Origin: Nitrosopumilus sp.
GTDB taxonomy: Archaea; Thermoproteota; Nitrososphaeria; Nitrososphaerales; Nitrosopumilaceae
Reading direction: 5' to 3'
NCBI GenBank assembly: GCA_965249555.1
Contig: OZ252243.1
Location: 448,001 to 512,000 of the forward strand
DNA length: 64,000 bases
This document shows, piece by piece, positions 7,812-64,000 of the stretch. Made by a program: the position numbers and the translations under genes. Below the pieces are notes generated by a model. The model was not told the origin of the DNA, ran no database searches, and worked only from the letters and a program-made list of their open reading frames with translations. The first letter of the stretch is position 1; the number at the start of each line of letters is the position of its first letter.

Positions 7812-7839
7812 TCAAATGTCTTAATTGAAAACCCAAGAT

Positions 7840-9831: not shown

Positions 9832-9886
9832 TCAGAAAATTTATCAAGTGATTTCGATTAGAATATTAAACAAAAAATCTATTTCA

Positions 9887-9957
9887 TAATTAGTGGTGTA
9901 GTGTCAGCACGTTCACCTGATAACTGAAAAACACGAGTTAGATTCCCATCTAATCCA
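9887..9957 (+). pseudogene. Degenerate 71-nt tRNA-like element with GAT (Ile-type) anticodon
   Basis: Manual cloverleaf: acceptor (ta)attag/ctaatcc, D gtgt/gcac, anticodon arm ttcac-CTGATAA-ctgaa, damaged T arm acgag-TTAGATT-cccat. Partial second copy at ~9975-10007. Confidence 0.55.
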
Positions 9958-10079
9958 CTAAAAATAAAAAAAGCTAGTGTAATTCTAGCATTTCACCTGA
10001 TAACTGACTAATTCCTACTTTTTAGAGTATAAAAAACTTCGATCAAGGACAGATATTCATCAAAGTTTATGCCCAGTAT

Positions 10080-42925: not shown

Positions 42926-43703
42926 CACATTTTATTTCACTATCAGGATCCAGGTAACTTGCCATCATCGGTACCGATGACTGGCTCACATCTTTTATCA
43001 GTATCTTCTTTTATTTTATCAAAATCCATGATAAAGTTGGAGATCTTGTATTTTCCATCAGATCTAGACTGACCGCCAGCAGACCACACTTTAATTTTTT
43101 TACATATTCCAAACGATGCTAGTTTTCCTATGCCCACGATGCCAACAGACAACGGTAATTCATTGTACTCCGGACACATCAAAGGTAATGAGGAGATCTA
43201 TGTCAAAGACGATTACCTAGTGATAATTCACGAGAAAAAGGGAAATGTGTTCACCAGGGAATTGTGTCTTCGGTGTACGTAAACTTTTTTCATTCCCTGC
43301 CATTGTTCATCTAATCTGATCCTTCATGCCATGAGTCAATGACATCCCATGACATGATTAGTCCACCTCTAGTTACAGGAGAATGGTGTGTTGTTTTCCA
43401 GTTTCCAACCATGAGTGATGAAAATAAGTGCTCCAATGGTTTGTTGATGCAACAATCTAGATCAGATGGTTAGTTATGCAACACAGCAGTAACTTTGATC
43501 AACTTTCTCTTTTTTGGTTTTTGCTGCTTTGTAGATGTTTAATCTAGGGAATATTTTTAATTGATTTGGGTTCGTATTAATTTTTAATAAATAAAAGATT
43601 AAAAGTCTTTTCAGGCTCTTAATCCAAATTACCATCGGGTAATCGTTTACCATCATAATCGTCATAGCGATTATAATTAAAAGTTACTATAATTTTAGGC
43701 ATG

Positions 43704-43787
43704 TGTATGGAGAGGGATTTGAACCCTTGAAACCCTAAAGGCAATAGTTTGGTAAACGATCACTTTTGACCACCCAGTAATCCATAC
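43704..43787 (-). pseudogene. Degenerate class II (long variable arm) tRNA-like element, anticodon loop TTACCAA
   Basis: Acceptor gtatgga/tccatac, D-loop GGTGGTCAA, anticodon arm atcgt-TTACCAA-actat, variable hairpin, T arm AGGG-TTCAAAT-CCCT. Confidence 0.65.
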
Positions 43788-43969: not shown

Positions 43970-44064
43970 TATCCATGTGAATTGTTTTTAAACATTTCCC
44001 ACTTTTTTGCATCCAGAGGCATAGCCTTCGCTAGGGAATGCTTTCAATCAAAAGATGACGGACA
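43970..44064 (+). repeat. 95-bp direct repeat, copy A (copy B at 57019-57112)
   Basis: Five mismatches and one indel between copies by manual alignment. Confidence 0.9.
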
Positions 44065-44940: not shown

Positions 44941-45120
44941 TTAATCAGTAGGATCTCTTTGAATATTGGAATAATCATCAGGATTTACATGAAATTTTTT
45001 GACAGAAAAATGACCATGTGGATGGCACTTAGGACAATGACAACGATCTCCCCAATAAACATCTGCTTCTTTTGTACTAAGAAATTCTGTTTTACAGTCA
45101 TAGCATTTTACTAAATTCAT
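44941..45120 (-). CDS. Small zinc-finger protein (59 aa, not in ORF track)
   Basis: MNLVKCYDC...RCHCPKCHPHGH. Confidence 0.5.
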   Translation of the reverse strand: MNLVKCYDCKTEFLSTKEADVYWGDRCHCPKCHPHGHFSVKKFHVNPDDYSNIQRDPTD

Positions 45121-45245
45121 ATTTTTTATTTAATTGATTATTATTTAAAATATATCCTAATCGCTAATTTACCAACCTAGTATGTGTAGACCCTGCTCAT
45201 CCTAGAAACAGAATGAATATCATTGTAGTTTGAATAATAAATTAA

Positions 45246-46144
45246 GGCGATTAGGTAACCTACTACCCCTAACATATTTCTCAGCAATAAATCAAACAGA
45301 TTACAATCCCCGTTATTGTATCTCCATTCCATCTCCTTGAGGTACAGTAAAAATTTGCCTGGACTCACCCGTGATGCTTTGCCATGTTTTCTTTGGCAAA
45401 GCTCCAAAAGCCTTCAATGCCGTTAATGTACACATCCCCTTTGCCAAACATCTTGTTGTGATCTACTGAGAGATGCTTGTATCCATGAAACACCAGAGAA
45501 TCATATCCCTTCCACTTGTCAGTGTACACGATGCTTCCTTTTTTCACTTTTCTAATTGTACTTTTCAGAAGGGTTTTAGCTTTGACGTTGTTTACTATCT
45601 CAACGTGAACCCTTGCCTTTTCTCTCAAATTCCAAACACAATGGTCTTGTTTTTGGCACCGCGTCCGCGATTTCCCATTCCTTTTTCCTCCAAAATACGC
45701 CTCGTCAGCCTCAATCTGGCCCTTTAGGACCTTGTCAGTGTTTGCCAATTCCTCAAGTATGGAATATCTGATTGCATCAAATGCCCTCAGAGCCGTCTTG
45801 TAACTCAGATGCATCTGCTCTGATGCAGTCTTTGCAGATACGGATAGCTCAAAGAGCTTGATCAGCGAGAGCCATTTGGAATTCTAATCAATGAGAATTT
45901 GGAACTTGAAAACGGTTTGAAGTCTTTCTGGCATTTTGTGCATCTCATATTGTTTCTGCTTTTCATGATATAGAGATCTTTGTTTTTGCAGAAAATGCAG
46001 GAAAGATCCTCAGTGCACCTTGATTCCAAGAATTGCACCAACAATGATTCATCAGGGATTGTTTTTGCAAATGATACAAAATCCATCCATTGTTTTTGTG
46101 AAATATTCCATGATAATCTTAGGGGCAGTAGATACCCAATAACC
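45246..46144 (-). mobile_element. IS1595-family element with a frameshifted ISXO2-type transposase
   Basis: Zn finger, EADEAYFGG, YTDKWKGY, INGIEGFWS and YLKEMEWRYN spread over three frames. Imperfect TIRs GGCGATTAGGTAACCTACTACCCCTAA / GGTTATTGGGTATCTACTGCCCCTAA. Confidence 0.9.
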
Positions 46145-46179
46145 TAATTACATATAATTCTCAAAAGATATGATGGAAC

Positions 46180-49100
46180 CTAGTCATTCCAGCTAAGATC
46201 AGAGTCATCATATATCATACAGTCACACAGCATCTCCTGGGCCAGCATCTCTTGTATGGATAGTGATTCCAGCAGTGCAGGATCTGATACTCTGTCCAGC
46301 CTTAATGGCATATCATATGAGAATGATTCATCCAAGGTTCCCTGAATTGCCTTACTATCAAAGATTAGGGTTGCCCTATCCTGCTCATCAATTACCAGAT
46401 TTGCAAAGTTTGAATGAATTCTAGTCATTACGCTTGTTGGCAGATCATCTCTTTGTTGTATATCAGGTCTTGTAATCTGCAACCAGGTGCCATAGTCATT
46501 TTGTGACCATATGTATCCATATTGGTCCTCCCAGACCTGGTAACGTCTGTCCTGCTGGGTTAGTGATATGGTCTCAAACGGATTCTGGTTGCCATGCTTT
46601 TGTTTTAACTCATGAGTTGCTGCTGCAAGTAATGCTTCACCTGTAAACTCTACACCTTCGTTGATATATGTGGTAGTAGAATAACGTTGTTTGTCAACTG
46701 CATTAATTGCCAATACTTCATGGGATAATGGTGCCATTATTACAAATGATATGGTAACATCAAAGCACCTCTCTGCAGTATCTGATGATGTACATTTGAC
46801 TTTGTCAATTGTGGCACCAGTCATCTCCTCATTTACTAGTTCCTCTTTTTGCTCATGGACTATATCTGCAATGTCATAGCCTGCAGGACTGGTATAGTTG
46901 CTATTTACATTCACTATAATGTGGGACTCTGCATTAGTCTTCAGGCCAATTTCTGGAACTCCAAGGGATAAAGATACCGACTTTAGGCCATTTGTTGCAT
47001 AGCCTTTGATGTGGACTGTATTGTCATCACCAATAATGCTGCTAGTCAGATCAAAGTCAGTGTGCCAGTTGTTTGTAATGGTTAATGGCATGCCATTAAA
47101 GACAAAGCCGTCATCAACTAGCTGTACTGCTTGATTATTCCAATGTTTGCCAAAGGTTGGCTTTGTTTTCCATTCATTAGAATCTCCACCTTTTTTCTTT
47201 GGTGTTTCAGTTCCAGAAGGTGCACTAGCGATGCTACCAACTGCTGTTGTATCAAGTGTAATGACTACAGGTGATGATGCGTCAGATGTGTTGACTCCAT
47301 CAGATGCTGTTGCAGTGAATGAGTTCTCACCTTCATCTAGTGCAACTTCTGTAAATGAGAAATTCCCGTCACCATCGGCAGTTATTGTATCAACTGTTGA
47401 TCCTTCATTGAATAGTTCCACAGTTGTCCCGGCCTCAGCCGTACCTTCAATCGTGATTGATGGTGTATTGACAGTTGCAGGTGGTGTGGTAATTGCAGGA
47501 ACTGGTGGTGCTGTAACATCAGATCCTACTGTTACAGTTTCAGTGATTGTTGTGACTTGTCCATTGTTGTCAGTTACAGTGTAAGTTACAACATATTCTC
47601 CAGAAGTGTTGGCATTTACTGTTTCACCGCCAACTAAACTGGATGCAATTCCTGAGATATCAGATTCATTGGCAATTACACCTGGGGTGTATGTTCCGTC
47701 AAATGGTACTGTAGTTGTATAGTCAACTGTGTGACCATCAACATCAAAGGTTGGTGCTGTGGTATCAGATACGGTAATTGTAATTGATTTTTGGTCTGGT
47801 GTGTTGCCTGCCGCATCATCTGGTGCATCATACAATACGGTGTATACTCCTATAACACTGGAGTTAGGCGCATCATCTGTAACTGTTACTGTTCCAGAGT
47901 AATTTGGGTCATTATCTTCTACAGTAGCGTCAGGTATAGTGTAGGTGTTGGTTTGAGTTAACTCAATTATTTCACTAGATCCTGCTGGTGTGATAACTGG
48001 TTTTTCTGTATCAGGTAGAGTTGGTGGTGTGGTAGCTGTAACTGTAACTGTTCTAGTTACTGTAACTGCAGGGTTTCCAGCCGCATCAACTACATCAAAG
48101 GTAACATCATAGGTTCCAATCGTATCGGTATCAGCTGGATATCCAGCAACAACTACATCATCTGTGATAACTCCATCAGTGTTATCAGTTGCAGCAAAGG
48201 TGAATGGTGTGTATGTTTCTCCAAGTTCAACGGAGAATGATTCCTCATTGACTGTGATAGATGGTACTGTGGTATCAAATGCTTCAGGTACAGGTTCACA
48301 TATTTTATTATCTACACCAACACCCTTTACACAAACTTCATTAGCATCGTTTAGATCGATGATACGAGTTATAGTAGTAGTGATAGTATATTGATTTGAT
48401 TCTACAGTTGGAGTGAAAGTATCAAAATCATTACTACCGTCACCAATAGTAAGAACATATTCATTGGGGAGATTAGTTTCTATATTACTCCAGGATACTG
48501 TAACGGAATTATCAGCATTTCTTACAGCATCTATTGTTGGTTCAGGTCCTACTGTTACAGTTTCAGTGATTGTTGTGGTTTGTCCATTGCTGTCAGTTAC
48601 AGTATAAGTTACGATATATTCTCCAGAAGTGTTGACATTTACCAAGTCATCACCAACTACAATACTAGATACAATTACTGAGATATCAGATTGATTGTTA
48701 ATTGCACCTGGGGCGTATGTTCCGCCAAATGGTACTGTAGTTGTATAGTCAACTGTGTTACCATCAACATCAAAGGTTGGCGGTGTGGTATCAGATACGG
48801 TAATTGTAATTGATTGTTGGTCTGGCGTGTTACCTGCTGTATCAGCTGGCGCATCATACAATACGGTGTATACTCCTATAACACTGGAGTTAGGCGCATC
48901 ATCTGTAACTGTTACTGTTCCAGAGTAGGCTGGGTCATTATCTTCTACAATAGCGTCAGGTATAGTGTAGGTGTCAGTTGCAGTTAACTCTATTGTTTCA
49001 CTGGATCCTAATACCGTGATTACCGGTTTTTCGGTATCAAGCGTAATGACTATAGCTGGTGATGCAGCAGATGTGTTGACTTCATCAGATGCAGTTGCAG

Positions 49101-51891
49101 TGAATGAGTTGGTACCTGGATTTAGTGCAACTCTTGTAAATGAGAAATTCCCTGTATCAGCAATTACTGTATCAACTGATGTTGCTCCATTGAATAGTTC
49201 TATAGTTGTCCCGGCCTCAGCCGTACCTTCAATCGTGATTGATGGTGTATTGACAGTTGCAGATGAGGTGGTGATTATAGGAGCTTCCGGTGTTTCAGTA
49301 TCAAGTGTAATGACTATAGCTGGTGATGCAGCAGATGTGTTGACTCTATCAGATGCTCTTGCAGTGAATGAGTTGGTACCTTCATCTAGTGCAACTCCTG
49401 TAAATGAGAAATTCCCTGAACCATCGGCAATTACTGTACCAGCTGATGTTCCTCCATTGAATAGTGTTATAGTTGCTCCGGCTTCAGTTGAACCGCCATC
49501 AATTGTGATTGGTGATGCGCCAACAGTTGCAGATGGTGTGGTAATTGTAGGAACTGGTGGTGGTGTGGTATCAGTACTTTGAGCAGGTACGTCTGCATAC
49601 GTTATATCACCATATGTACTCTCAACAGCAACAGCACCAGCTACGCCAATTCTATCAGCATTATTTATTTTGTCAAAAAATGAATTACTAGTCAGGATAG
49701 TAAGAACAAATACTTCAGCCTCAGCAGTAGGGGAATGTGTAGTAAAGTGAGGTGTTTCTACTGTACCTCCTTTAGATACATAGAGAGCAAAATTGTTAAC
49801 AGATTCTATATTACTCCAGGATAGCGTGATGGAATTATCAGCATTTCTTTCAGCTGTTAAGGATGGAGTTGTATCAGTTGGTGCTGCAAGTGTAGTTACA
49901 GACACGACATTAGAGGCGGCACTGTCTCCAGCTGCTGCCACTGTCCTTATGGAATAAGTATAAGTTGTTTCAGGTTCCAAGGTATCATCAGTGTATGATA
50001 TCTCAGTCCCAGTGACTGGTATCTCAATTGATCCTGTGCCACCTGTTCTGCTCAGCGTATAACCAGTTGCACTAGTCTGCGCATCCCATGAGAGAACTAC
50101 ACTGTTATGAGTAGGGATTGCTGCAGTAAGTGCTGGGGTGCCAGGTACAGTCGATATGGATTCCCTTGCATATTCATGTCCACCAAATGAGATGACAACA
50201 TCACCAATAAAGCCATGACCAGTTAGTAGTGTAATAACTGGGGTGATACTACCTACCTCAGTAGTAATAATAGTCCAGTTCACGCTCGGACCACCTACTG
50301 CTTGAATCACAAATGTGCCTGCTCTTAACGGAACAAAGGATACCTCTACATCTCCATCAGCATTCGCAGTAGTATCAAAAGAGCCTGCCCTGATTGCCAG
50401 TGTCCTTGCAGATTTGCTTGCAACTGTCTCACCATCAAATGAGAGGGTGACTATATCATCAAAGACAAAGCCGACTGTTATTGTTTCCTCTTTTTCTCCT
50501 GAATCTGATACATCCTCAGCTGAGACAACAACAGTATCACTTGACTCACTAGATGTAATCGTAAATGTGCCTTCCTTTAAGGCTGTAAATTTCACAAGTA
50601 ATGTGTCTGCATTTACCGTATTGGTAATCACGAAAGAGTCTGCCTCTATTGCCGGAGTATCAGCTTGAGTTAAGGTTCTTGCATCAAACTCTAGAGAAGT
50701 ACTTGTCCCGGCAGTATTTGTTGCCGTAATGGTATACTTGTACGGTGTATCAGGAGACAGGGTCTCATCAGTGGCAGTCAATACATTGCTGGATACCACT
50801 ACTACATTACCGCCTGCAACAATTCTGGTTAAAGTGTAACTGTCGGCATTATCCACTGCACCCCATGAAAGTGCTATACTTGTGTCAGTGACTTCTCCCA
50901 GTACAAGTGCTGGAGTAGCAGGTGGTTCGGCATTTTGAGCAGGTACTGACCTCCACACAACCGGGCCATTATATTGGTCAACAAAATCAGAGTTAATTCT
51001 TATCGAACCAGTAGAACCAGTTACGCCGATTCTTGTAGCATCATTTACCAGGTCAAGATCCTCACCCGTAATGGTATAAGGGGAATTAAGCGTCTCATGG
51101 AGTTGATTACCATCACTTACGTCATTTATATAAATACCAAACCAACCACTGACAGTTTGCACATTATCCCAGGACAGTTTGATGGAATTGTCATCCAGTC
51201 GTTCAACTGTCAGAGTTGGTGGTGGTGCAGGTCCAGTCGTTACATGTGCCCTTGCAACTTCAACTAGATCAGCTCCGTCTCTAAAGAAAATGACGACATT
51301 GCCATCAAAACCATAACCTATCGTTAGTGTGGGTCCTCTATGTGTACCTATCTGACTATTACTAACAGCTACAAGAATAATGGTATCATCATGGTAAACA
51401 AGATAGTCACCGGCTTGTTTCGGTACAAAAGATACAGTTATTCGATCGTCTCTGGAAACATACTTTTGAATACTAAAACTGTCGTCCTCGATTGCCGTCT
51501 GGTCAGATGTGTAAGTTGGTGCTGTGGCACTAAAAGAGTCCGGTGCAGATGTGGTAGATAATTCCAAAGTATTAGAGTCTGCACTTGTCTGGGCTAAACT
51601 ATTGCGTGATATGGCATGATAAGTGTACTCTGTATCAGGAGCTAAATCATAATCAATGAGTGACGTATCAGCAGTATCTCCTGCGACAGTGCCGTTTCTG
51701 TACACTGTGTATGTTACGGCACCTTCTATCTCACTCCATGTAATCTCAATGTTTGTCGAAAAGATTTCTCCTGCTTCAATTACAGGAGGGACAGGTGCAA
51801 TTGGGGCTTGAGCCTCAGCACTTGCAAGAAGCGATATGGCAAACAGGACAACCCCCCCCCCCACTAACGCATTAAATAACATTTTATTCAT
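46180..51891 (-). CDS. 1903-aa secreted/surface protein with FN3 and bacterial Ig-like (Big/DUF5011-type) repeats and a C-terminal domain beginning KPTFG
   Basis: Signal peptide, repeated LSW...YTL.R...L.PDT.Y.Y FN3 units, DT..P.IT...Y.V.Y Ig units, Thr/Asp-rich. Confidence 0.85.
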   Translation of the reverse strand: MNKMLFNALVGGGVVLFAISLLASAEAQAPIAPVPPVIEAGEIFSTNIEITWSEIEGAVTYTVYRNGTVAGDTADTSLIDYDLAPDTEYTYHAISRNSLAQTSADSNTLELSTTSAPDSFSATAPTYTSDQTAIEDDSFSIQKYVSRDDRITVSFVPKQAGDYLVYHDDTIILVAVSNSQIGTHRGPTLTIGYGFDGNVVIFFRDGADLVEVARAHVTTGPAPPPTLTVERLDDNSIKLSWDNVQTVSGWFGIYINDVSDGNQLHETLNSPYTITGEDLDLVNDATRIGVTGSTGSIRINSDFVDQYNGPVVWRSVPAQNAEPPATPALVLGEVTDTSIALSWGAVDNADSYTLTRIVAGGNVVVVSSNVLTATDETLSPDTPYKYTITATNTAGTSTSLEFDARTLTQADTPAIEADSFVITNTVNADTLLVKFTALKEGTFTITSSESSDTVVVSAEDVSDSGEKEETITVGFVFDDIVTLSFDGETVASKSARTLAIRAGSFDTTANADGDVEVSFVPLRAGTFVIQAVGGPSVNWTIITTEVGSITPVITLLTGHGFIGDVVISFGGHEYARESISTVPGTPALTAAIPTHNSVVLSWDAQTSATGYTLSRTGGTGSIEIPVTGTEISYTDDTLEPETTYTYSIRTVAAAGDSAASNVVSVTTLAAPTDTTPSLTAERNADNSITLSWSNIESVNNFALYVSKGGTVETPHFTTHSPTAEAEVFVLTILTSNSFFDKINNADRIGVAGAVAVESTYGDITYADVPAQSTDTTPPPVPTITTPSATVGASPITIDGGSTEAGATITLFNGGTSAGTVIADGSGNFSFTGVALDEGTNSFTARASDRVNTSAASPAIVITLDTETPEAPIITTSSATVNTPSITIEGTAEAGTTIELFNGATSVDTVIADTGNFSFTRVALNPGTNSFTATASDEVNTSAASPAIVITLDTEKPVITVLGSSETIELTATDTYTIPDAIVEDNDPAYSGTVTVTDDAPNSSVIGVYTVLYDAPADTAGNTPDQQSITITVSDTTPPTFDVDGNTVDYTTTVPFGGTYAPGAINNQSDISVIVSSIVVGDDLVNVNTSGEYIVTYTVTDSNGQTTTITETVTVGPEPTIDAVRNADNSVTVSWSNIETNLPNEYVLTIGDGSNDFDTFTPTVESNQYTITTTITRIIDLNDANEVCVKGVGVDNKICEPVPEAFDTTVPSITVNEESFSVELGETYTPFTFAATDNTDGVITDDVVVAGYPADTDTIGTYDVTFDVVDAAGNPAVTVTRTVTVTATTPPTLPDTEKPVITPAGSSEIIELTQTNTYTIPDATVEDNDPNYSGTVTVTDDAPNSSVIGVYTVLYDAPDDAAGNTPDQKSITITVSDTTAPTFDVDGHTVDYTTTVPFDGTYTPGVIANESDISGIASSLVGGETVNANTSGEYVVTYTVTDNNGQVTTITETVTVGSDVTAPPVPAITTPPATVNTPSITIEGTAEAGTTVELFNEGSTVDTITADGDGNFSFTEVALDEGENSFTATASDGVNTSDASSPVVITLDTTAVGSIASAPSGTETPKKKGGDSNEWKTKPTFGKHWNNQAVQLVDDGFVFNGMPLTITNNWHTDFDLTSSIIGDDNTVHIKGYATNGLKSVSLSLGVPEIGLKTNAESHIIVNVNSNYTSPAGYDIADIVHEQKEELVNEEMTGATIDKVKCTSSDTAERCFDVTISFVIMAPLSHEVLAINAVDKQRYSTTTYINEGVEFTGEALLAAATHELKQKHGNQNPFETISLTQQDRRYQVWEDQYGYIWSQNDYGTWLQITRPDIQQRDDLPTSVMTRIHSNFANLVIDEQDRATLIFDSKAIQGTLDESFSYDMPLRLDRVSDPALLESLSIQEMLAQEMLCDCMIYDDSDLSWND
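51852..51862 (-). repeat. G11 homopolymer in the signal-peptide codons of the surface-protein gene
   Basis: C11 on the + strand, GTG GGG GGG GGG GTT on the coding strand. Confidence 0.95.
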
Positions 51892-52544
51892 ATTGTATCA
51901 AAAATAATTTGCGGTTATAAAAGGTTTGTAGGTTGATTTTTTAAGCTTGTAATTTGGCAATCGTGAGTAATTTGGGCATAGCTCAGATATGCATATGTGT
52001 AAAGTTTTGTAAAATGAGATTCAGGGGATCTCATAATTTTGATCGTATTTTTCACAGTGGAATGCCAATGCCTAAAAATGGTGATTGGGCATCATACCCC
52101 CCATACACTTGCAATGGATCAAATGAATTAGTTTCTGTATTCCACCTTCGGCGTATGGTAAAAATTTGCCCGGACTCACTCCAGGGGCAGGCAGGTTGGC
52201 ATATCATCAGGCATATGCCATAACTGAAGACAAGAGAGCAGGAAGACTGCAAGATGGAATTGATAAATTAGAAAACAGAATAAAAGAGTTGGAGCTAAAC
52301 TGACATGGAACTAGTGAGGCAGACATTGATGAGGGAATCTTACAACTTTGATCTCAGATTGATGCCAAACAAAGAATCATTGGTGGTATTAACACCCCTG
52401 AATTAATTACAGATGGGGAAAGAATATTATCAATTAATGCTGAATTAAATTCTTTGATTAATGACATGAATGGTATAGTTGGAGATATCAATGACTTGAG
52501 GTCACAATTAGCGAGGACTATTAAGAGAACCTGAACCCATTGTA

Positions 52545-52913
52545 TTGCCGGAACAACAAGAAATTAACACGCTTGAGCCTTTTGTTACAGCGGATAAGGT
52601 ACAGTATGGTTTAGCAGATACAACATACACAACTGGATTAAGAGAAGTGCCTCCACCAAAAATGCTAGTTGATGGCTCTACTGTACCATATAATGAAATA
52701 CTACATCTTTATCTTGTTAATTATCAAAGTGGTGAGTTTGTAAAGGTGTGTAATGATCCGTGTGTTGTGTTAAATGATGGTGGTTCTTATTTGAGACAGA
52801 TTGGAGTCTCAGGGGATCTCGAAATAGGTTCTTATCATATTTTGTCATTTCATCAAGGCGGTATTGGAAATAATTATGGTATTATATATTCTCAACAATT
52901 CATAATCCAATAA
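52545..52913 (+). pseudogene. 3' portion of an eroded gene (coiled-coil-like remnants upstream at ~52250-52540)
   Basis: 122-aa TTG ORF preceded by broken heptad-like frames. Confidence 0.35.
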
Positions 52914-53220
52914 CCAAATTTTTTGAATTTTAGAATATGTATCTCTTACATAATAACTTTGATAATACATTTGATGCAACAGTTAACATCTTCTATTAAT
53001 TATTATTCATTTCAAAGTGAAGATCACAAGTATGGAAAAACCACATGTAAACATCCATGGGCGGGACACTAGATGGGAATAATCTTGGCCCTACAAATAC
53101 AGTTCATGCAGCGCCAACAGGTGATATCTCTACATTAATAATTAGATTTTATCTGCCACGATAATTATTGTATTGATGGTGTAACACTAAACTATCATGT
53201 ATGGTATATCCTATCCAAAT

Positions 53221-53314
53221 TAGAAAAAAGAGATTAGCACGCTGGCCTAACCTATCTAAGAAGTAATGCTATTACTATTCATTTTTTAATAAACCTTGTG
53301 GGCGTGTAGCATGA
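53221..53314 (+). repeat. ~94-bp diverged copy of 58677-58770, including the first 15 nt of the tRNA-like element
   Basis: Shared AAAAGAGATTAGCACGCTGGCCT, TATTACTATTCATT and TTGTGGGCGTGTAGCATGA. Cut off by the IS110 remnant. Confidence 0.85.
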
Positions 53315-54022
53315 GGACTGGTCTTTACGGCAGCATACACTCTTGAATTAATCTCTGCAATTTGCAGATTGATATGGCCTATCTGTCGTAGAAATCCATC
53401 TATGCGATAGTCACCTAGGGAGATGAGTCTTTCGTTGTATGTTACAGTGAACGGGACCCCGGGTATCTTGATTCCCTCTTGCAACAAAATTCCATGAACA
53501 GAATTTTTGAGAGAGGTCCTCCACTGAACGAGTTTTTTTCTGTATCTTACCAGCTGGCGATGTTTTACTATCTTTTTGTTTGTAATATGGCATGTTGCAA
53601 TGTATCCCCCGCGCAAAAGATCTGCCAGTATCCTGGCATCAATCTTGTCTGTTTTTTTTGATGCAGCTATTGCCTTTGTAAGATAGGGGTTTGAAAGTGT
53701 AACATTTTTGTATCCCAATTCATCTGTAAGAAATCCATACGTGTTATACTGATGATGACTCCATGACCATATTGGCATGAATCGGTATTCCTGTAAAATG
53801 TTTCCTGATTGATTCATGAGTGTTCTCAACTTTTATGTTTTGTAATATCTTTCCGCCATTATCCATTGTTGCCACTTGAAGAAATTCCTTGTGCAAGTCA
53901 ATGCCAACATACATGCACTTGTCTTTTTTTGCCCTAATCTGTTTCTTTGAGGACGATGGATTACGACTCCTGGACCTGGGTTCATTTCCTATGCTATCTG
54001 AATTCCTTCTTTTGGTATTCAC
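53315..54022 (-). mobile_element. IS110-family transposase remnant (frameshifted, C-terminal domain lost)
   Basis: YVGIDLHKE, VMESS and KTDKIDARILADLLR motifs. Confidence 0.88.
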
Positions 54023-55426: not shown

Positions 55427-55828
55427 TTACTCTTTAAGATCATCAGGATTTGTTGACCAAGGTTCTATTGCATATGTCTCAGATTTTCCATCAATTTCTA
55501 ATTTCCACAAATTAATTAAATTTCTACCTAAGAGAACATATTCTTTTGGCATTGCGACCACTTCAAAACTATCAAACTTTATACCGCCAATCTCAATACT
55601 GACAAAATAGTTGTAATGTATGGTTTCCACTCCAGTCACAGTCTTTACTATTGTTTCATCGGTCTTTTTTAGACTTAATGTGTTGACAAGATAATCTGGA
55701 ATTACTGTGTGACTTGAACCTGTGTCTATTTTTCCTTTTTCTGGAAAAGATTTTCCAGAATTATTCCACACTGTAAGATCCAGAACCAAAGAACTGGGAT
55801 TGTCTAGAGTGTTATGTCTAAATTTCAA
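55427..55828 (-). CDS. Retropepsin-like (clan AA) aspartic protease
   Basis: IDTGSSHT catalytic motif, TVTG flap and LLGRNLI. Confidence 0.85.
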   Translation of the reverse strand: MKFRHNTLDNPSSLVLDLTVWNNSGKSFPEKGKIDTGSSHTVIPDYLVNTLSLKKTDETIVKTVTGVETIHYNYFVSIEIGGIKFDSFEVVAMPKEYVLLGRNLINLWKLEIDGKSETYAIEPWSTNPDDLKE

Positions 55829-57018: not shown

Positions 57019-57112
57019 TATCCATGTGAATTGTTTTTATACATTTCCCACTTTTTTGCATCCCAAGGCATACCTTCGCTGGAGAATGCTTTCAATCAAA
57101 AGATGACGGACA
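57019..57112 (+). repeat. 95-bp direct repeat, copy B
   Basis: Matches 43970-44064. Confidence 0.9.
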
Positions 57113-58560: not shown

Positions 58561-58755
58561 ATACTGTGATTGAATAAAATAAAATAAAAGTATGTATCAA
58601 GCACTTTAGATGTATTGATTTGTGCGTGAAGGTTGATACATACTACAAAATTTGTATAAAAACATAACATTTGAAATAGAAAAGAGATTAGCACGCTGGC
58701 CTTACCTCACCCGAAAACTACCATTATTACTATTCATTATTTAATAAATCTTTGT

Positions 58756-58826
58756 GGGCGTGTAGCATGACGGTCATGCACTCACTCGAAAACTGAGAGA
58801 TTTGGGTTCAACTTCCAACACGTCCA
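58756..58826 (+). ncRNA. 71-nt non-canonical tRNA-like element, central anticodon GAA (Phe-type)
   Basis: Acceptor gggcgtg/cacgtcc, D gcat-gacggtc-atgc, anticodon arm ctcac-TCGAAAA-ctgag, T ttggg-TTCAACT-tccaa. C33 and a C31.C39 mismatch are atypical. Confidence 0.7.
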
Positions 58827-59185
58827 CAAATCAATCTTTTGTTTTTTAATCCAACTATTATGATTTTAGTATTAATTTGATGTTTCAGAAAATATAAAAT
58901 AAAAAAAGGGGTTTCTATGTTTGATGCATGTGATTATAGTTTTACACTAAAAAATGCAGATATCTTTGCCAAAGAATCTTGTACCGGAGTATTGAACGGT
59001 AACTATGAGCAAGCAATTAAAATCCTTTATGAATTAATTATGAAATCAAATTGATAATATCATGTAAAATGCTTGGATTTTGTTGGTAATGATATGTAAG
59101 TTTTAGAATCACTGTTCAGAATTTCTCTTTTTGTCAACAATTCATCAACTACTCTTTTTAACAAGAGTCAGTTATTGGTATAATC

Positions 59186-59992
59186 ATGGCTAAAAGATAC
59201 AACTCCCCAATTACTTATCGATTAAAGGAAATTCCCATTAAATACATCAAAATATGGAAGGATGCACAAGCTAGAAAACTAGACAGGGAGGGAATCGCAG
59301 AACTTGCCCGTTCCATCAAAAATGAAGGATTGCAGAATCCACCTATGGTCCAAAAGGAATCAAAAAACTCGTATTTGTTACTGTCTGGACAGAGAAGGCT
59401 TGCTGCCCTGAAAAGGTTGGGTGCAAAGAAGATACCGGTGTTATTGCTTACACATAGTACGAAATATGATGTACATGATGCAAAGGCAGCATCAGTGGTT
59501 GAGAATCTGCATCGAAACAAAATGAACACAAAGGACATGACGGCAGCATGTGTATTTTTGACAGAATCAGTTGGAAAAAGTAAAGCTGCAAAATCACTAG
59601 GAATATCATCACAAACACTGAAGAAATACCTTGGATTTGCAGCGGTTCCAGATAGATTGAGGCAGTTTGTACCAAAGGAGCTGTCTCGTGATGATTGTGT
59701 GAAATTATATCAGGTCATCCCAAATCCATCAAAGGCTGTATCTGTTGCAGAGAAGATCATTCCACTGGACCAGAAACTACGAAGAGAGTATCTCAAGGTT
59801 TTGAGTCGTTCTCCAAAATCATCTCATCTCAAGTTGCTCAAGAAAGCAAAGAGCGGATTACTCCAACAGAGAGTTGTTATTTTGTTGAACAAGGGAAATG
59901 CCCGGAAACTGCGTAGTTTGGCTGTGAGAAAAGATGTAAAAGTTGTAGAGATGGCAGATGATATACTTTCTGATTATCTGAAAAGAAGGTAA
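59186..59992 (+). CDS. ParB/Spo0J-like protein
   Basis: LARSIKNEGLQNP, LSGQRRLAA and ENLHR motifs, plus an HTH (AAKSLGIS). Confidence 0.88.
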   Translation: MAKRYNSPITYRLKEIPIKYIKIWKDAQARKLDREGIAELARSIKNEGLQNPPMVQKESKNSYLLLSGQRRLAALKRLGAKKIPVLLLTHSTKYDVHDAKAASVVENLHRNKMNTKDMTAACVFLTESVGKSKAAKSLGISSQTLKKYLGFAAVPDRLRQFVPKELSRDDCVKLYQVIPNPSKAVSVAEKIIPLDQKLRREYLKVLSRSPKSSHLKLLKKAKSGLLQQRVVILLNKGNARKLRSLAVRKDVKVVEMADDILSDYLKRR

Positions 59993-61158: not shown

Positions 61159-64000
61159 TCAACTTTGATGGATAAAGGTCCTTGCAACTGACTCACCATC
61201 AAATAAGATGAATATCTTGCCATTATAACCAGGGCCGACTGGTACTGTAGTAGTTGATTTATCACGTAAATCACTATCTGTAATGCGGACAGTAATGCTC
61301 TGATCAGTACCATATTCAATCGTGAAATCACCGGATCTTAATGGCACAAATGATACAAATGCGTCATTAGAAGTAGAATAATAATCAATTCCAAAAGAGC
61401 CTGGTCTGATTGCAGATGGTGCTGTGTCAGTTGCTGCAGGTGTAGTTGCAGTGACCTCGTTAGATGAAGCACTTGGTCCAACGGAATTTGTAGCTATAAT
61501 GGTATACTTGTACTCTGTGTCTGCAGTCAGGTTCTCATCAGTGAAAGTCGTTGCATCGCCGGATAACGTTTCAGTATCATCAGCACTGCCTGCAAGGGTT
61601 CTGCTCAAAGTGTAACTGTCGACATTATCCGCTGTACCCCATGAGAGCGTTATACTTGTATCAGTAGTTGCTCCTGCGACAAGTACGGGTGCTGCAGGTA
61701 CAGTTGGCGTGGCAAGTGTAGTTGCAGTGACCTCGTTAGAGGCTGTGCTTGGCCCGACAGTGTTTGTCGCTATAATGGTATACTTGTAATCGGTTTCGGC
61801 AGTCAGGTTCTCATCAGTGTATGATATAGTAGTGCCCCCAGAGACCGGTATCTCAGCTGGCTCTGCGCCACCTGTTCTGCTCAGGGTGTAGCTGTCGGTA
61901 TTATCCACTGCAACCCATGAAAGTAATATAGTTGTATCAGTAGTTGCTCCTGCAGAAAGTACGGGTGCTGCAGGTACAGTTGGTTCAGGTCCTACTGTTA
62001 CAGTTTCAGTGATGATAGTAGGTAATCCATTGCTGTCAGTTACGGTATAAGTTACAACATATTCTCCAGAAGTGTTGACATTTACTGTGTCACCGCCAAC
62101 TATACCAGGTGCAGTTCCTGAGATATCAAATGCATTGTTAATTGCACCTGGGGTGTATGGTCCGCCAAATGGTACTGCAGTGGAATAGTCAACTGTGTTA
62201 CCATCAACATTAAAGGTTGGCGGTGTGGTATCAACTACGGTGATTACAATTGATTTTTGTTCTGGTTTGTTACCTGCCGCATCATTTGGCGCATCATACA
62301 ATACGGTGTATACGTCTACAACACTGGTGTCAGGTGTATCACCTGTAACTGCTACTGTTTCAGAGTAATTTGGGTCATTATCAGCTACAGTAGCGCCAGG
62401 TATAGTGTAGGTGTCAGTTGCAGTTAACTCTATTGTTGTATCAGATCCTGTTACTGTGATTACTGGTGCTGTTATATCAAATGCTTCAGGTACAGGTTCA
62501 CATATTTCATTATCTACACCAACACCCTTTATACAAACTCGATCAGCATCGTTTAGATCGATGTTAGTAGTAGTACGGATAGTGAATTCATTTGGGCCTC
62601 CAGTTGCAGAGAAACTATCAGAAGAACCACCATCATGAATAATAAAAGAATATTGATTAGGGGCATTAGTATCTATATTACTCCAGTATACTGTAACGGA
62701 ATTATCAGTATTTCTTACAGCATCTACTGTTGGTTTAGGTCCAGTTGGTTCAGGTCCAGTAGTTACAGATAACTTTGCAACCTCGCCATTGCCAAGGAAA
62801 ATCCTGACATTGCCTGTATAATCATACCCGACTGTTTCTGTGTGAATGAATGGGACGGCTGCATCATCAATTGTAAAGCCAATGGTACGACCACCCTCAA
62901 ATTCAATTGTAAAATCACCGGTGTGTGAGGATCTGAAGGTTATGACTACCTTGTCTCCGTCAGTAGCATGAGGGGCATCGCTGGAGGTGTACACGGCAGG
63001 TGACGGGCCTGGTTTGAGTGGATCAGTGCTAGCAATAAGTTCACCAGCTGTACTTGTCCCGGCAGTATTTGTTGCCATAATTATATACTTGTACTCTGTA
63101 TCAGCAGTCAGGTTATCATCAGTGGCAGTCAATACGTTGCCTGATAACACTTTAACATCATCACCGCCTGCAACGACTCTGGTCAGGGTGTAACTGTCGG
63201 CATTATCCACCGAATTCCATGAGAGCGTTATGGTATTATGGGTAACCGAGTCCTCACTGAGTGTAGGAGTGATAGGTGCAGTTGCAGATGTGGTAGTTAC
63301 ATCCAATGGTACAGATGGGATACCTTCTAGGAGACCACTTTTAATTGCTATGACGTGATATGAGTAGGATGTATCAGGAGTCACGTCCTCATCAAGGTAT
63401 TGGAAACCATTATCACGATGGACACCAGCATTGACGATGTCTATTTGAACAGTATCTCTAAACAACCTATAGAAGTTTACATCATCTACTTCATTCCATG
63501 AAATCGTGACACTGTCATGAGTGACTGCTATTTCCTCAAGTGTGACAATGGCTGCATCAGGTGCTGTAGGTGCAATTGGGGCAGCAGCAGTCCTTGCAGT
63601 GACCTCGTCAGCCGCGCCTGGCCCGGCAGAGTTTGTCGCTATAAGGGAATACTTGTACTCTGTGTCAGCAGCCAGGTTCTCATCAGTGAAAGTCAATGCA
63701 TTGCCTGATAACACTTCAGTACCATCAGTACTGCCTGCAAGGGTTCTGCTCAGGGTATAGGCGACTGTATTATCCACTTTACCCCATGAGAGTGCCACTG
63801 TCGTATCAGTGACTTTTCCCAGTACAAGTGCAGGAGCTGCAGGTACAGCTGTGGCAACAGCAGTAGTTGCAGTGACCTCAGAAGGTTCACTTGGCCCGAC
63901 AGAGTTTGTCGCTATAAGGGAATACTTGTACTCTGTGTCAGCAGTCAGTCCGGTATCAGTGGCAGTCAGTCCGGTATCAGTGGCAGTCAGTCCAGTTGTT
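61159..64000 (-). CDS. Second FN3/Ig-repeat surface protein, paralog of 46180-51891; 5' end beyond the window, C-terminus disrupted
   Basis: Frame stays open to 63999 and shares modules with the first paralog. A detached KTKPTFGVNWNNQ..LVDNGFVFN relic follows the stop at ~61060-61145. Confidence 0.8.
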   Translation of the reverse strand, partial: TTGLTATDTGLTATDTGLTADTEYKYSLIATNSVGPSEPSEVTATTAVATAVPAAPALVLGKVTDTTVALSWGKVDNTVAYTLSRTLAGSTDGTEVLSGNALTFTDENLAADTEYKYSLIATNSAGPGAADEVTARTAAAPIAPTAPDAAIVTLEEIAVTHDSVTISWNEVDDVNFYRLFRDTVQIDIVNAGVHRDNGFQYLDEDVTPDTSYSYHVIAIKSGLLEGIPSVPLDVTTTSATAPITPTLSEDSVTHNTITLSWNSVDNADSYTLTRVVAGGDDVKVLSGNVLTATDDNLTADTEYKYIIMATNTAGTSTAGELIASTDPLKPGPSPAVYTSSDAPHATDGDKVVITFRSSHTGDFTIEFEGGRTIGFTIDDAAVPFIHTETVGYDYTGNVRIFLGNGEVAKLSVTTGPEPTGPKPTVDAVRNTDNSVTVYWSNIDTNAPNQYSFIIHDGGSSDSFSATGGPNEFTIRTTTNIDLNDADRVCIKGVGVDNEICEPVPEAFDITAPVITVTGSDTTIELTATDTYTIPGATVADNDPNYSETVAVTGDTPDTSVVDVYTVLYDAPNDAAGNKPEQKSIVITVVDTTPPTFNVDGNTVDYSTAVPFGGPYTPGAINNAFDISGTAPGIVGGDTVNVNTSGEYVVTYTVTDSNGLPTIITETVTVGPEPTVPAAPVLSAGATTDTTILLSWVAVDNTDSYTLSRTGGAEPAEIPVSGGTTISYTDENLTAETDYKYTIIATNTVGPSTASNEVTATTLATPTVPAAPVLVAGATTDTSITLSWGTADNVDSYTLSRTLAGSADDTETLSGDATTFTDENLTADTEYKYTIIATNSVGPSASSNEVTATTPAATDTAPSAIRPGSFGIDYYSTSNDAFVSFVPLRSGDFTIEYGTDQSITVRITDSDLRDKSTTTVPVGPGYNGKIFILFDGESVARTFIHQS

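What the first reader, a model, noticed from the sequence alone, without database searches (positions are those of the whole stretch)
58751..58830. Non-canonical tRNA-like element that shares its architecture with one 49 kb away
Seen: 58756-58826 folds into a complete 71-nt cloverleaf with a 7-nt D-loop and 4-nt variable loop, and its acceptor stem extends to 12 bp (TTTGTGGGCGTG/CACGTCCACAAA). The element at 9887-9957 has the same segment lengths and the same odd anticodon arm, YTCAC-YYGAWAA-CTGAR, including the same C31.C39 mismatch. Neither resembles the GC-rich host tRNAs in this window, and both lie in islands near RNase-type toxin genes (HicA, HEPN). Inference: a shared mismatch argues for a family of virus/MGE-borne tRNA mimics (nuclease decoys, RNA antitoxins or integration targets) rather than independent decay.
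Basis: partly seen in the sequence, partly recalled or inferred. Interest (0 to 1): 0.72.

Follow-up and report, generated by a model that had tools for sequence, protein, structure and literature searches.

The report
Alanine-type tRNA paired with antisense RNA
The odd tRNA-like element is one of a family of alanine-type tRNAs carrying the anticodons of other amino acids, each sitting beside a tiny gene whose RNA is complementary to that tRNA's own anticodon arm, an arrangement that looks like a new kind of RNA-only control or poison-antidote cassette.

Summary
The cloverleaf at 58756-58826 is real (ARAGORN; Rfam tRNA 43.7 bits). It is not a decayed viral tRNA. It belongs to a covarying family: at least 11 copies in this 2.23-Mb ammonia-oxidiser genome, found in at least 16 of 150 other genomes of the genus, and in other Nitrosopumilaceae.

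Members keep a tRNA-Ala acceptor (G3:U70 in 43 of 46, A73 in 44 of 46). Their anticodons are GAA, AAG/CAG/GAG/UAG, GAU or GUC. The 31:39 pair is often unpaired (26 of 46).

The new point is a small partner unit within 160 nt of 44 of 46 members. On the strand antisense to the tRNA it reads: A/T box, a 11-19-nt seed complementary to tRNA positions 28-41, a hairpin, then a T-run. Seed and anticodon arm co-vary copy by copy. Mismatches are mostly G:U-compatible (15 against 1 reverse transition), which points to RNA-RNA pairing.

The second element (9887-9957) is a broken member: an 8-bp deletion removed its 5' acceptor strand, while its partner is intact.

Best reading (about 0.4): a mischarging tRNA held in check by a cognate antisense sRNA, toxin-antitoxin-like. 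Expression and charging are untested.

The parts
58753..58829 (+). Intact tRNA-like gene. Core is 58756-58826, 71 nt, plus the TGT/ACA extension of the acceptor helix. It has a tRNA-Ala-type acceptor (GGGC..GUCC, G3:U70, A73), anticodon GAA, C33 and C31.C39.
   Evidence: ARAGORN; Rfam 43.7 bits; family model R1 85.0 bits; family covariation.
58674..58724 (-). Predicted antisense sRNA gene partnered with the 58756 tRNA-like. The seed at 58706-58719 is complementary to tRNA positions about 27-40 (13 Watson-Crick pairs plus 1 G:U). The scaffold GGCCAGCGTGCTAATCTC lies at 58684-58705, followed by a T-rich end.
   Evidence: Partial copy found. Layout on the antisense strand. Same scaffold in 5 genome copies. 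Expression was not tested.
58736..58750 (-). A/T-rich TATA-like box, 12-26 nt upstream of the predicted sRNA start. It abuts the 5' end of the tRNA-like gene, so the two genes are divergent.
   Evidence: Read. An A/T 8-mer centred 18-34 nt upstream of the seed is present in 41 of 44 modules. The promoter function is inferred.
9851..10048 (.). Extent of the second cassette: the stretch homologous to the copy in a related genome. The flanks on both sides are unrelated.
   Evidence: blastn match covering query positions 1-189 only; pairwise alignment.
9887..9957 (+). Broken tRNA-like of the GAU type. An 8-bp deletion removed the 5' acceptor strand, and there are 4 substitutions in the T-arm and acceptor. 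The anticodon arm is intact.
   Evidence: Rfam 31.7 bits; R1 32.2 bits against 71.6 for the intact homologue L058; alignment.
9960..10010 (-). Intact antisense sRNA gene of the second cassette. Seed at 9992-10007 (16 of 16 complementary to the anticodon arm), hairpin at 9973-9989, T-run at 9960-9972. The TATA-like box lies at 10027-10037.
   Evidence: Exact 16-nt repeat; layout; fold; identical to the homologue's partner.
43704..43787 (-). Third tRNA-like, built on a different chassis: long variable arm, A73, no G3:U70, anticodon ACC, with TGT/ACA flanks.
   Evidence: ARAGORN; Rfam 34.6 bits; sequence.
43621..43655 (-). Predicted antisense partner of the 43704 element, on the same strand and downstream of it. 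The seed at 43639-43652 is complementary to tRNA positions 25-38 (13 Watson-Crick pairs plus 1 G:U). Hairpin ATTACC/GGTAAT. The T-run is weak.
53226..53316 (.). Fourth, truncated cassette. It has an intact sRNA gene (53226-53268, minus strand) and spacer, but only the first 17 nt of the tRNA-like (53300-53316, plus strand). Unrelated sequence follows.

Best explanation
The element is a working member of a two-gene, RNA-only cassette of about 200 bp.

Gene 1 is a tRNA built on the tRNA-Ala chassis. It has G3:U70 and A73, so alanyl-tRNA synthetase, which ignores the anticodon, should charge it with alanine. It carries a Phe anticodon here; Leu, Ile or Asp anticodons occur in relatives.

Gene 2 is a small RNA of about 50 nt, with its own A/T-box promoter and a hairpin plus T-run end. 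Its 5' seed pairs with positions 28-41 of its own tRNA, covering the anticodon loop and most of the stem.

Pairing would open the anticodon stem, which is often already weakened by a 31:39 mismatch. It would mask the anticodon and so keep the tRNA off the ribosome or mark it for decay.

The most likely role is toxin-antitoxin-like, for addiction or abortive infection. A stable, alanine-misinserting tRNA would be the poison and a dedicated antisense RNA the antidote.

Shown: the family, its fold, the alanine-type identity elements, the partner unit and the copy-by-copy covariation.

Inferred: transcription of both units, alanylation, decoding, and toxicity with its neutralisation.

The confidence of 0.4 is for the whole statement including the toxin-antitoxin-like role. 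For the bare architecture (a tRNA plus a cognate antisense RNA gene) I would say about 0.9.
For: 1. The fold is under selection. 94.9% of 1101 cells are paired against 74.1% in shuffles. 17 of 24 pairs have compensatory changes. 0 of 500 shuffles reach the observed covariation score (independent 11-sequence alignment).

2. The alanine identity elements are conserved while the rest varies. G3:U70 is present in 43 of 46 and A73 in 44 of 46. The family model's next-best hits are the host tRNA-Ala genes. G3:U70 is the alanine determinant and transplants alanine acceptance into tRNA-Phe (PMC9976931, passages read).

3. Anticodon-loop features needed for decoding are kept. A37 is present in 46 of 46 and a pyrimidine at 33 in 46 of 46. 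Only 9 anticodons are used, although the stems around them differ widely.

4. A partner lies within 160 nt in 44 of 46 distinct members. Among the other 46 tRNA calls of this genome, none has a copy of its anticodon arm of 11 nt or more nearby.

5. The footprint is sharp. tRNA positions 28-41 pair with the partner in at least 91% of 43 modules, with 3-5 pair types per position. Pairing falls to 65% at position 26 and 53% at position 42.

6. The pairing is RNA-level. Of the differences between arm and copy, 15 are G:U-compatible for an antisense RNA, 1 is the reverse transition and 4 are transversions (p = 5e-4). After adding metagenome and other-genus members by hand the counts are 20, 4 and 7 (p = 0.0015).

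7. Orientation fits an antisense transcript. A T-run lies 12-45 nt downstream on the antisense strand in 40 of 44 modules, against 7 of 44 on the sense strand. A hairpin precedes the T-run in 39 of 40. An A/T box lies upstream in 41 of 44 against 24 of 44. This layout holds in all three arrangements: divergent, convergent and tandem.

8. The pairs are specific. Cognate duplexes average -27.1 kcal/mol against -13.7 for non-cognate ones, and the cognate tRNA ranks first for 36 of 44 seeds.

9. Decay is asymmetric. In this genome 3 cassettes keep an intact sRNA gene beside a deleted or truncated tRNA-like, and one further scaffold fragment stands alone. Only 1 tRNA-like lacks a partner.

10. The distribution is patchy and multi-copy, in IS-rich islands, with no conserved protein neighbour.

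11. tRNA-Ala with non-Ala anticodons mistranslates and slows growth in yeast (PMC10543346, abstract read).
Against: - There is no expression data for either RNA.
- Neither alanylation nor decoding was tested. Ten of 46 members have C33 and 26 of 46 lack the 31:39 pair, which may weaken or abolish decoding.
- One intact-looking member (genome 58883) has no partner anywhere in the genome at up to 2 mismatches. That is awkward if the tRNA is lethal on its own.
- The individual sRNA hairpins are no more stable than shuffled sequence (z from -0.87 to +1.39).
- A broad automated recount of mismatch direction gave only 26 against 14 (p = 0.08). That run included about 10 pairs that are ordinary neighbouring tRNA genes, which I removed by hand afterwards.
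- Related sequences are not independent, so the p-values are overstated.
- The A/T-box criterion is weak in a 34% GC genome: it is met in 24 of 44 modules even on the wrong strand.
Confidence: 0.4

Rival explanations
1. The architecture is the same (a tRNA plus a cognate antisense sRNA), but the tRNA is not a poison. It could be an accessory or non-ribosomal alanine donor, or a conditionally used recoding tRNA. The sRNA would then be an ordinary regulator of its level.
For: All the structural evidence fits equally well. The non-canonical loops (C33 in 10 of 46, 31:39 mismatch in 26 of 46) suggest poor ribosomal decoding. One member lacks a partner without obvious harm.
Against: - No enzyme that would use Ala-tRNA is linked to the cassette.
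- Orthogonal, fast-diversifying pairs, patchy multi-copy spread and loss of the tRNA before the sRNA are typical of conflict modules rather than housekeeping regulation.
- The anticodon and A37 are conserved while the stems diverge. That is unexpected if decoding did not matter.
Confidence: 0.25
2. The element is a DNA-level feature. The tRNA-like and the partial copy would be attachment or crossover sites of a site-specific recombinase, or a product of gene conversion, and the identity between them would reflect recombination rather than RNA pairing.
For: Mobile elements of these archaea usually integrate into tRNA genes and leave short att repeats (PMC6563490, passages read). The cassettes lie in IS-rich islands, and IS110-, IS66- and DDE-type transposase genes are nearby. 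The cassette is a discrete unit of about 200 bp found at unrelated loci.
Against: - The two copies lie only 17-70 nt apart, with nothing mobile between them.
- They occur as direct or inverted repeats, which would give opposite recombination outcomes.
- The tRNA-likes are whole, not split.
- Pfam found no integrase within 5 kb of 8 copies. The best hit was a sub-threshold integrase SAM-like match at E 0.028.
- Mismatches are directional, G:U-compatible on one strand only, which DNA identity does not predict.
- The footprint edges are the same in all arrangements.
Confidence: 0.1
3. One reading: the tRNA-likes are decoys or replacements that absorb or evade anticodon nucleases such as HEPN-type enzymes, carried by mobile elements.
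For: The anticodon loops are altered. A PaREP1/HEPN gene lies 56 nt upstream of the 9887 element and an Mrr-type nuclease gene is nearby. The islands carry defence-like genes.
Against: - It does not explain a dedicated antisense partner for each copy.
- It does not explain the alanine acceptor combined with Phe, Leu, Ile or Asp anticodons.
- No nuclease gene is consistently linked.
- HicA was not found.
- No members were found on the viral contigs searched.
Confidence: 0.07
4. The elements are decaying pseudogenes of viral or host tRNA genes with no function. The nearby copies would be chance or remnants of duplication.
For: The 9887 copy and the 53300 fragment are indeed broken.
Against: There are compensatory changes in 17 of 24 pairs and the identity elements are invariant. 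A partner is present in 44 of 46 members, with a 14-nt covarying footprint.
Confidence: 0.02

Closest known systems
Type I toxin-antitoxin systems (for example hok/sok): an antisense RNA antitoxin paired with a toxin mRNA (recalled knowledge)
   Same: A small, separately transcribed antisense RNA is encoded beside its target. Pairs are cognate-specific. Distribution is patchy and multi-copy on islands and mobile DNA. The target gene tends to decay first.
   Different: The target here is a tRNA, not an mRNA for a small membrane peptide, and the cassette has no toxin ORF. The antisense gene does not overlap its target, so complementarity has to be maintained by covariation.
CreTA / type VIII toxin-antitoxin: an RNA toxin with an RNA antitoxin, known in archaea (PMC8501985; only the search listing and the start of the abstract were seen)
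   Same: Both partners are RNAs, translation is the process attacked, and it occurs in archaea.
   Different: CreT sequesters a tRNA, and CreA is a CRISPR-like guide that needs Cascade to repress transcription. Here the tRNA itself is the presumed effector. The partner pairs directly with it, and no CRISPR repeat or cas gene is linked.
Mistranslating tRNA-Ala anticodon variants, engineered in yeast and natural in humans (PMC10543346, abstract read; PMC12084884, search listing only)
   Same: A tRNA-Ala body with G3:U70 and a non-alanine anticodon. AlaRS ignores the anticodon, so alanine is inserted at other codons and growth suffers.
   Different: Those are single mutants of housekeeping genes without a dedicated regulator. 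Here a diversified gene family is conserved as such and is always coupled to an antisense RNA.
tRNA genes as integration sites of archaeal mobile elements (PMC6563490, passages read)
   Same: A tRNA-related sequence with a nearby partial copy, located in a genomic island.
   Different: In integration the repeats flank kilobases of mobile DNA and usually involve the 3' part of a host tRNA gene. Here the copy lies 17-70 nt away, covers the anticodon arm, can be inverted, and carries its own promoter-like and terminator-like signals.
Phage- or virus-encoded tRNAs with altered anticodon loops (recalled knowledge)
   Same: Extra tRNA genes of lower GC than the host set, with unusual anticodon loops.
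   Different: No family member was found in IMG/VR in the loci examined. Acceptor identity and anticodon disagree, and an antisense partner is present.

Membership tests
tRNA (Rfam RF00005) | Cloverleaf scoring above the curated gathering score of 29 bits | tested here: met
   43.7 bits for 58756-58826 and 31.7 bits for 9887-9957.
tRNA (Rfam RF00005) | Conserved tertiary nucleotides: U8, A14, G18-G19, T-loop GTTCRANYC | tested here: met
   Read from alignments A1 and A2. The T-stem G53-C61 column is G-C in 42 of 46.
tRNA (Rfam RF00005) | Canonical 7-nt anticodon loop closed by a 31:39 pair, with U33 | tested here: not met
   The window copy has C31.C39 and C33. Across the family, 26 of 46 have a 31:39 mismatch and 10 of 46 have C33.
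tRNA-Ala isoacceptor | G3:U70 wobble pair and A73 | tested here: met
   G3:U70 in 43 of 46 and A73 in 44 of 46. Both are present in 58756-58826.
tRNA-Ala isoacceptor | Anticodon NGC, reading alanine codons | tested here: not met
   Anticodons are GAA 17, AAG 9, GUC 8, CAG 3, GAG 3, GAU 3, AUC 1 and UAG 1. Only 1 of 46 is CGC, and that one is an ordinary tRNA-Ala without a partner.
tRNA-Ala isoacceptor | Charged with alanine by AlaRS | not testable with these tools
   Needs an aminoacylation assay.
Type I toxin-antitoxin | Antisense RNA complementary to the toxin transcript | tested here: inconclusive
   Complementarity and gene-like signals are shown. The transcript itself was not observed, because no RNA run was listed.
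Type I toxin-antitoxin | The toxin is a small hydrophobic peptide encoded by the target mRNA | tested here: not met
   The target is a 71-nt tRNA, and no conserved ORF lies in the cassette.
CreTA (type VIII toxin-antitoxin) | The antitoxin RNA carries degenerate CRISPR repeats and acts through Cascade | not tested
   No repeat-like flanks were seen by eye in the sRNA units. cas genes were not searched for.
Integrated mobile element with tRNA att sites | Direct repeats flanking an element that encodes an integrase | tested here: not met
   The copies are 17-70 nt apart and can be direct or inverted. No integrase was found by Pfam within 5 kb of 8 copies.
Virus-encoded tRNA | Located on viral contigs or in a provirus | tested here: not met
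   0 of 80 IMG/VR loci match model R1. All 30 loci found with a stricter pattern are ordinary tRNA-Ala genes with encoded CCA.
C/D-box guide sRNA targeting a tRNA | C (RUGAUGA) and D (CUGA) boxes bracketing the guide | tested here: not met
   No C box was found in the partner units read by eye, and the motif is recalled. Rfam reported only tRNA matches in the window at gathering thresholds.
IS110-family bridge/seek RNA | A guide RNA at the end of an IS110 element inserted into the matching target, splitting that target | tested here: not met
   IS110 transposase genes lie near some copies, but in no fixed position or orientation. The tRNA-likes are intact, not split.

The most novel reading that the evidence does not exclude
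This is a new class of RNA-only toxin-antitoxin or abortive-infection module. The toxin would be an alanine-accepting tRNA that reads Phe, Leu, Ile or Asp codons and corrupts the proteome. A second chassis with a long variable arm (43704-43787) may do the same through another anticodon-blind synthetase. The antitoxin would be a short-lived antisense sRNA that masks the anticodon arm. Pairs would diversify to stay orthogonal, as plasmid incompatibility determinants do.
Probability: 0.35. Interest if true: 0.95.

Novelty: categorically new. Interest (0 to 1): 0.82.

Why it matters
If both RNAs are made, this is the first case I could find of a tRNA gene with its own dedicated, co-evolving antisense RNA gene. 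Eight full-text searches found no description of such a pair.

It would also be a natural, conserved family of tRNAs whose acceptor identity (alanine) contradicts their anticodon. That would make deliberate mistranslation a candidate weapon or addiction device in archaea. It would extend toxin-antitoxin biology to a tRNA toxin.

The pairs could also supply a set of naturally orthogonal tRNA and anti-tRNA switches for synthetic biology.

For annotation, these genes are currently called tRNA-Phe or tRNA-Leu by standard finders. That inflates tRNA counts in Nitrosopumilaceae genomes and mislabels the genes.

Tried and rejected
- **RNA evidence:** The look-up of sequencing runs listed no RNA holder.
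- **Viral origin:** two IMG/VR scans gave 0 of 80 and 0 of 30 family members.
- **Integration or att-site idea:** rejected on spacing, orientation, lack of an integrase and the direction of mismatches.
- **IS110 bridge-RNA idea:** transposase fragments are nearby but not in a fixed relation, and the targets are not split.
- **C/D-box guide:** no boxes were seen.
- **A conserved protein partner:** only IS transposases recur near 26 modules.
- **HicA near 58756:** not found.
- **A mistaken inference, corrected:** I first took the 63-bit hit present in every genome of the genus for an orthologue of genome 87428. It is the ordinary tRNA-Ala(UGC).
- **Over-broad recount:** a wide regex recount of mismatch direction pulled in ordinary neighbouring tRNA genes and gave p = 0.08. 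It was superseded by a hand-filtered count.
- **Short sRNA-scaffold patterns (13-16 nt):** too unspecific to count orphan partners. Only the 18-mer scaffold was usable.
- **Stability of single sRNA hairpins:** not above shuffles.
- **Earlier scan findings:** none were returned.
- **Metagenome records behind L252 and L305:** they could not be opened for context.
- **The 93-nt 'b' family:** no partner was found.
Full report
**1. The observation**

The window is G000:C1:448001-512000 of a single-contig genome of 2,230,439 bp at 34% GC.

ARAGORN finds three tRNA genes in the window, among them tRNA-Phe(GAA) at 58756-58827. Rfam's tRNA model gives five matches above its gathering score of 29 bits:
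- two GC-rich host genes, at 38156-38239 and at 32663-32777 (the latter with a 49-nt insertion);
- three lower-GC ones: 58756-58826 (43.7 bits), 43704-43787 on the minus strand (34.6 bits) and 9887-9957 (31.7 bits).

**2. It is a family, and the fold is under selection**

The genome has 58 Rfam tRNA matches. Eight of them are 71-nt look-alikes of the 58756 element, at genome positions 58883, 92748, 506756 (the window copy), 1841925, 1886429, 2185021, 2194433 and 2214901. All share GGGC...GTCCA ends, and all but 58883 have TGT/ACA flanks.

An 11-sequence alignment that includes four copies from other genomes supports the cloverleaf. 93.6% of cells are paired against 75.0% in shuffles, and 13 of 24 pairs have changes on both sides.

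With a covariance model (R1) I collected 47 matches, 46 of them distinct. On these, 94.9% of cells pair against 74.1% in shuffles. 17 of 24 pairs have compensatory changes, and 0 of 500 shuffles reach the covariation score. That alignment is fitted to the model, so it leans towards the structure.

Decaying pseudogenes would not behave like this.

**3. What kind of tRNA**

The first four acceptor pairs and the discriminator are almost invariant. G3:U70 is present in 43 of 46 sequences and A73 in 44 of 46.

These match the host's own tRNA-Ala genes (GGGCCGG...CCGGTCCA). The model's next-best hits in every one of 150 genomes of the genus, and in four genomes of other genera, are ordinary tRNA-Ala(UGC) genes.

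G3:U70 is the alanine determinant, and moving it into tRNA-Phe confers alanine acceptance (PMC9976931, passages read).

The anticodons, however, are not alanine anticodons:

| Anticodon | Count of 46 |
|---|---|
| GAA | 17 |
| AAG | 9 |
| GUC | 8 |
| CAG | 3 |
| GAG | 3 |
| GAU | 3 |
| AUC | 1 |
| UAG | 1 |
| CGC | 1 |

The single CGC is an ordinary tRNA-Ala that the model also picked up.

A37 is invariant (46 of 46) and position 33 is always a pyrimidine (U 36, C 10). The 31:39 pair is unpaired in 26 of 46.

A separate canonical, GC-rich tRNA-Phe(GAA) exists at genome 2017742. It is conserved at 90% identity or more in most of the 150 genomes searched.

So these are alanine-type bodies carrying the anticodons of Phe, Leu, Ile or Asp.

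**4.

Each member has, within 160 nt, a short copy of its own anticodon arm. This holds for 44 of 46 distinct sequences. The two exceptions are genome 58883 and the true tRNA-Ala of G072.

As a control, I looked in this genome for exact self-matches of 11 nt or more within 300 nt. They fall in the anticodon arm for 8 of the 11 tRNA-likes; two more have a single mismatch. They fall in the anticodon arm for none of the other 46 tRNA calls. Two of those 46 have matches elsewhere in the molecule.

The copy can lie in three positions relative to the tRNA-like:
- upstream and direct, the commonest arrangement;
- downstream and inverted;
- downstream and direct.

Read on the strand antisense to the tRNA-like, all three arrangements give the same gene-like layout:
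- an A/T-rich box;
- about 22-26 nt of spacer;
- a seed of 11-19 nt complementary to the anticodon arm;
- a short hairpin ending in CTAGCC or GCTAATCTC;
- a T-run.

Counted over 44 modules:

| Feature | Antisense strand | Sense strand |
|---|---|---|
| T-run 12-45 nt downstream | 40 of 44 | 7 of 44 |
| A/T 8-mer centred 18-34 nt upstream | 41 of 44 | 24 of 44 |

A hairpin of 4 bp or more precedes the T-run in 39 of the 40 modules that have one.

**5. Evidence that the pairing is RNA with RNA**

*Footprint.* tRNA positions 28-41 are complementary to the partner in at least 91% of 43 modules, and in 100% at positions 29, 30 and 33-39. There are three to five different pair types per position. 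Complementarity drops to 65% at position 26 and 53% at position 42.

*Direction of mismatches.* Where arm and copy differ, the difference is mostly one that an antisense RNA would tolerate as G:U. That means tRNA U against copy C, or tRNA G against copy A. There are 15 such cases, 1 reverse transition and 4 transversions in 42 distinct pairs (p = 5e-4).

A broader automated recount over all loci gave 26 against 14 (p = 0.08). That run had pulled in about ten ordinary neighbouring tRNA genes from phage and bacterial loci, plus one palindromic misalignment. I removed these by hand. I then added the pairs of L054 and L066 and of window 43704. The count becomes 20, 4 and 7 (p = 0.0015).

Relatives are not independent, so these p-values are upper bounds on the strength of the evidence. 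DNA-level identity, whether from recombination or conversion, predicts no such asymmetry.

*Specificity.* Cognate seed-tRNA duplexes average -27.1 kcal/mol and non-cognate ones -13.7. The cognate ranks first for 36 of 44 seeds. Within this genome only the 58756 and 1841925 modules, which share the arm, are predicted to cross-react.

**6. The four cassettes of the window**

(a) *58753-58829 (+) with its partner at 58674-58724 (-).* Both are intact and divergent. The seed at 58706-58719 makes 13 Watson-Crick pairs and one G:U.

(b) *9851-10048.* The tRNA-like at 9887-9957 is broken. Compared with its homologue in G036, 8 bp (TAGTGGGC) including G1-C4 are deleted and four positions are substituted. 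The partner at 9960-10010 (-) is letter-for-letter intact over seed, hairpin and T-run. Homology to G036 ends at both cassette borders, so the cassette is a discrete unit of about 200 bp sitting at different loci.

(c) *43704-43787 (-).* This is a different chassis: long variable arm, A73, no G3:U70, anticodon ACC. It has the same TGT/ACA flanks and a downstream partner at 43621-43655 (-), with one G:U.

(d) *53226-53316.* An intact partner gene and spacer, but only the first 17 nt of the tRNA-like.

Across the genome, the 18-nt scaffold of the 58756-type partner occurs five times: twice beside an intact tRNA-like, twice beside a truncated one and once as an orphan fragment. Conversely, only genome 58883 is a tRNA-like without any partner in the genome.

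**7. Distribution and context**

Family members scoring above the tRNA-Ala background were listed in 16 of the 150 other genomes of the genus, mostly the larger ones. This is a lower bound, because 1694 matches were not listed.

In a sample of 145 genomes from other genera of the order, only ordinary tRNA-Ala scored.

A pattern scan of one genome per species found 25 family-like loci (non-Ala anticodon plus partner). All are in records titled Nitrosopumilus sp., Nitrosopumilaceae archaeon or Thaumarchaeota archaeon. The other 13 loci are ordinary tRNA-Ala genes from unrelated lineages.

A metagenome scan gave 79 loci, of which about 16 are family-like. Four of these are high-GC (0.53-0.56). 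Their partner lies about 100 nt downstream, behind a TTGACA...TACTAT motif. I could not place their host.

No member was found in IMG/VR.

Around 26 modules the only recurring neighbours are IS transposases. Pfam finds no integrase near eight copies. Copies share only the roughly 200-bp cassette.

**8. Mechanism**

*Shown:* the fold, the identity elements, the partner unit and the covariation.

*Inferred:*
- Both units are transcribed.
- AlaRS charges the tRNA.
- The tRNA decodes Phe, Leu, Ile or Asp codons.
- The sRNA invades the anticodon stem-loop from the loop. The frequent 31:39 mismatch enlarges the loop to 9 nt, which should help nucleation.
- The duplex blocks decoding or triggers decay.

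tRNA-Ala with foreign anticodons mistranslates and reduces growth in yeast (PMC10543346, abstract read).

Several observations fit a toxin-antitoxin-like cassette with a tRNA as the stable poison. These are the orthogonal, diversifying pairs, the patchy multi-copy spread in islands, and the loss of the tRNA before the sRNA. I put this at about 0.4. The bare architecture, a tRNA plus a cognate antisense RNA gene, I put at about 0.9.

The main rival keeps the architecture but makes the tRNA harmless: a regulated accessory or non-ribosomal alanine donor. DNA-level recombination, nuclease decoys and plain decay are less likely, for the reasons listed under rivals.

**9. What is missing**

No RNA run was available. 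Charging and toxicity cannot be computed. The supplementary tables of PMC6563490, which list att sites of thaumarchaeal elements, were not opened and might list some of these loci as integration sites.

Eight literature searches found no description of a tRNA gene with a dedicated antisense partner. That is absence from the held library, not proof that it is unpublished.

Noticed in passing
window 43704-43787 (-) and 43621-43655 (-): A second chassis with the same cassette logic. It is a tRNA-like with a long variable arm, A73, anticodon ACC and TGT/ACA flanks, followed by a downstream antisense seed. From memory, a long variable arm with A73 marks leucine identity in archaea, and LeuRS also ignores the anticodon.
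   Followed up: partly
window 53226-53316: A truncated cassette: an intact partner sRNA gene, but the tRNA-like is cut after nt 17 by unrelated sequence. IS110, IS66 and DDE transposase fragments follow at 53.7-54.9 kb.
   Followed up: partly
genome G000:C1 181323-181415, 1539985-1540077, 1917746-1917838, 2195354-2195442: A further family of 89-93-nt tRNA-likes with a long variable arm, discriminator G and anticodon GAA. This would be a serine-type body with a Phe anticodon (the identity rule is recalled). No antisense partner was found within 300 nt.
   Followed up: partly
genome G000:C1 87428-87502 (locus L014:678-757 and 770-830): A family member with a fully canonical anticodon loop (CUGAAAC) and a downstream partner with a T8 run. 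It lies about 5 kb from another cassette. It is the member most likely to decode efficiently.
   Followed up: partly
metagenome loci L241, L248, L252, L305: A high-GC (0.53-0.56) group of alanine-type tRNAs with a GUC anticodon. An 18-nt antisense seed lies about 100 nt downstream, preceded by a TTGACA...TACTAT motif that looks like a bacterial sigma-70 promoter. The cassette idea may therefore exist outside the Nitrosopumilaceae.
   Followed up: partly
window 4200-10050: A low-GC island inserted between a homocitrate-synthase-like gene (2940-4118) and the lysW/lysX-like genes (10080-11532). It carries an Mrr-type restriction endonuclease (8480-8926) and a PaREP1/HEPN gene (9439-9831). The remaining ORFs have no Pfam family.
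   Followed up: partly
window 33140-33409: At least 13 in-register copies of a 15-nt tandem repeat (TCCATCATTTTGTCA), just downstream of the intron-containing tRNA gene at 32663-32777.
   Followed up: no
window 45000-53000 and 61159-64000: Very large surface-protein genes rich in fn3 and Ig-like domains, at higher GC (0.40-0.45). Long internal and mutual repeats of 80-90% identity run over hundreds of bases.
   Followed up: no
window 43970-44023 and 57019-57072: A 54-nt repeat at 94% identity. It belongs to a roughly 95-nt segment found at many places in the genome next to IS110-like genes, and is probably the end of an IS.
   Followed up: partly
window 59186-59992: A ParB-N domain protein with a sub-threshold NUMOD1-like match (E 0.0023, 18.6 bits against a cut-off of 22.8), 360 nt downstream of the tRNA-like. 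Retropepsin-like aspartyl protease genes recur in two of the islands (window 55427-55828 and L017:7583-8011).
   Followed up: no
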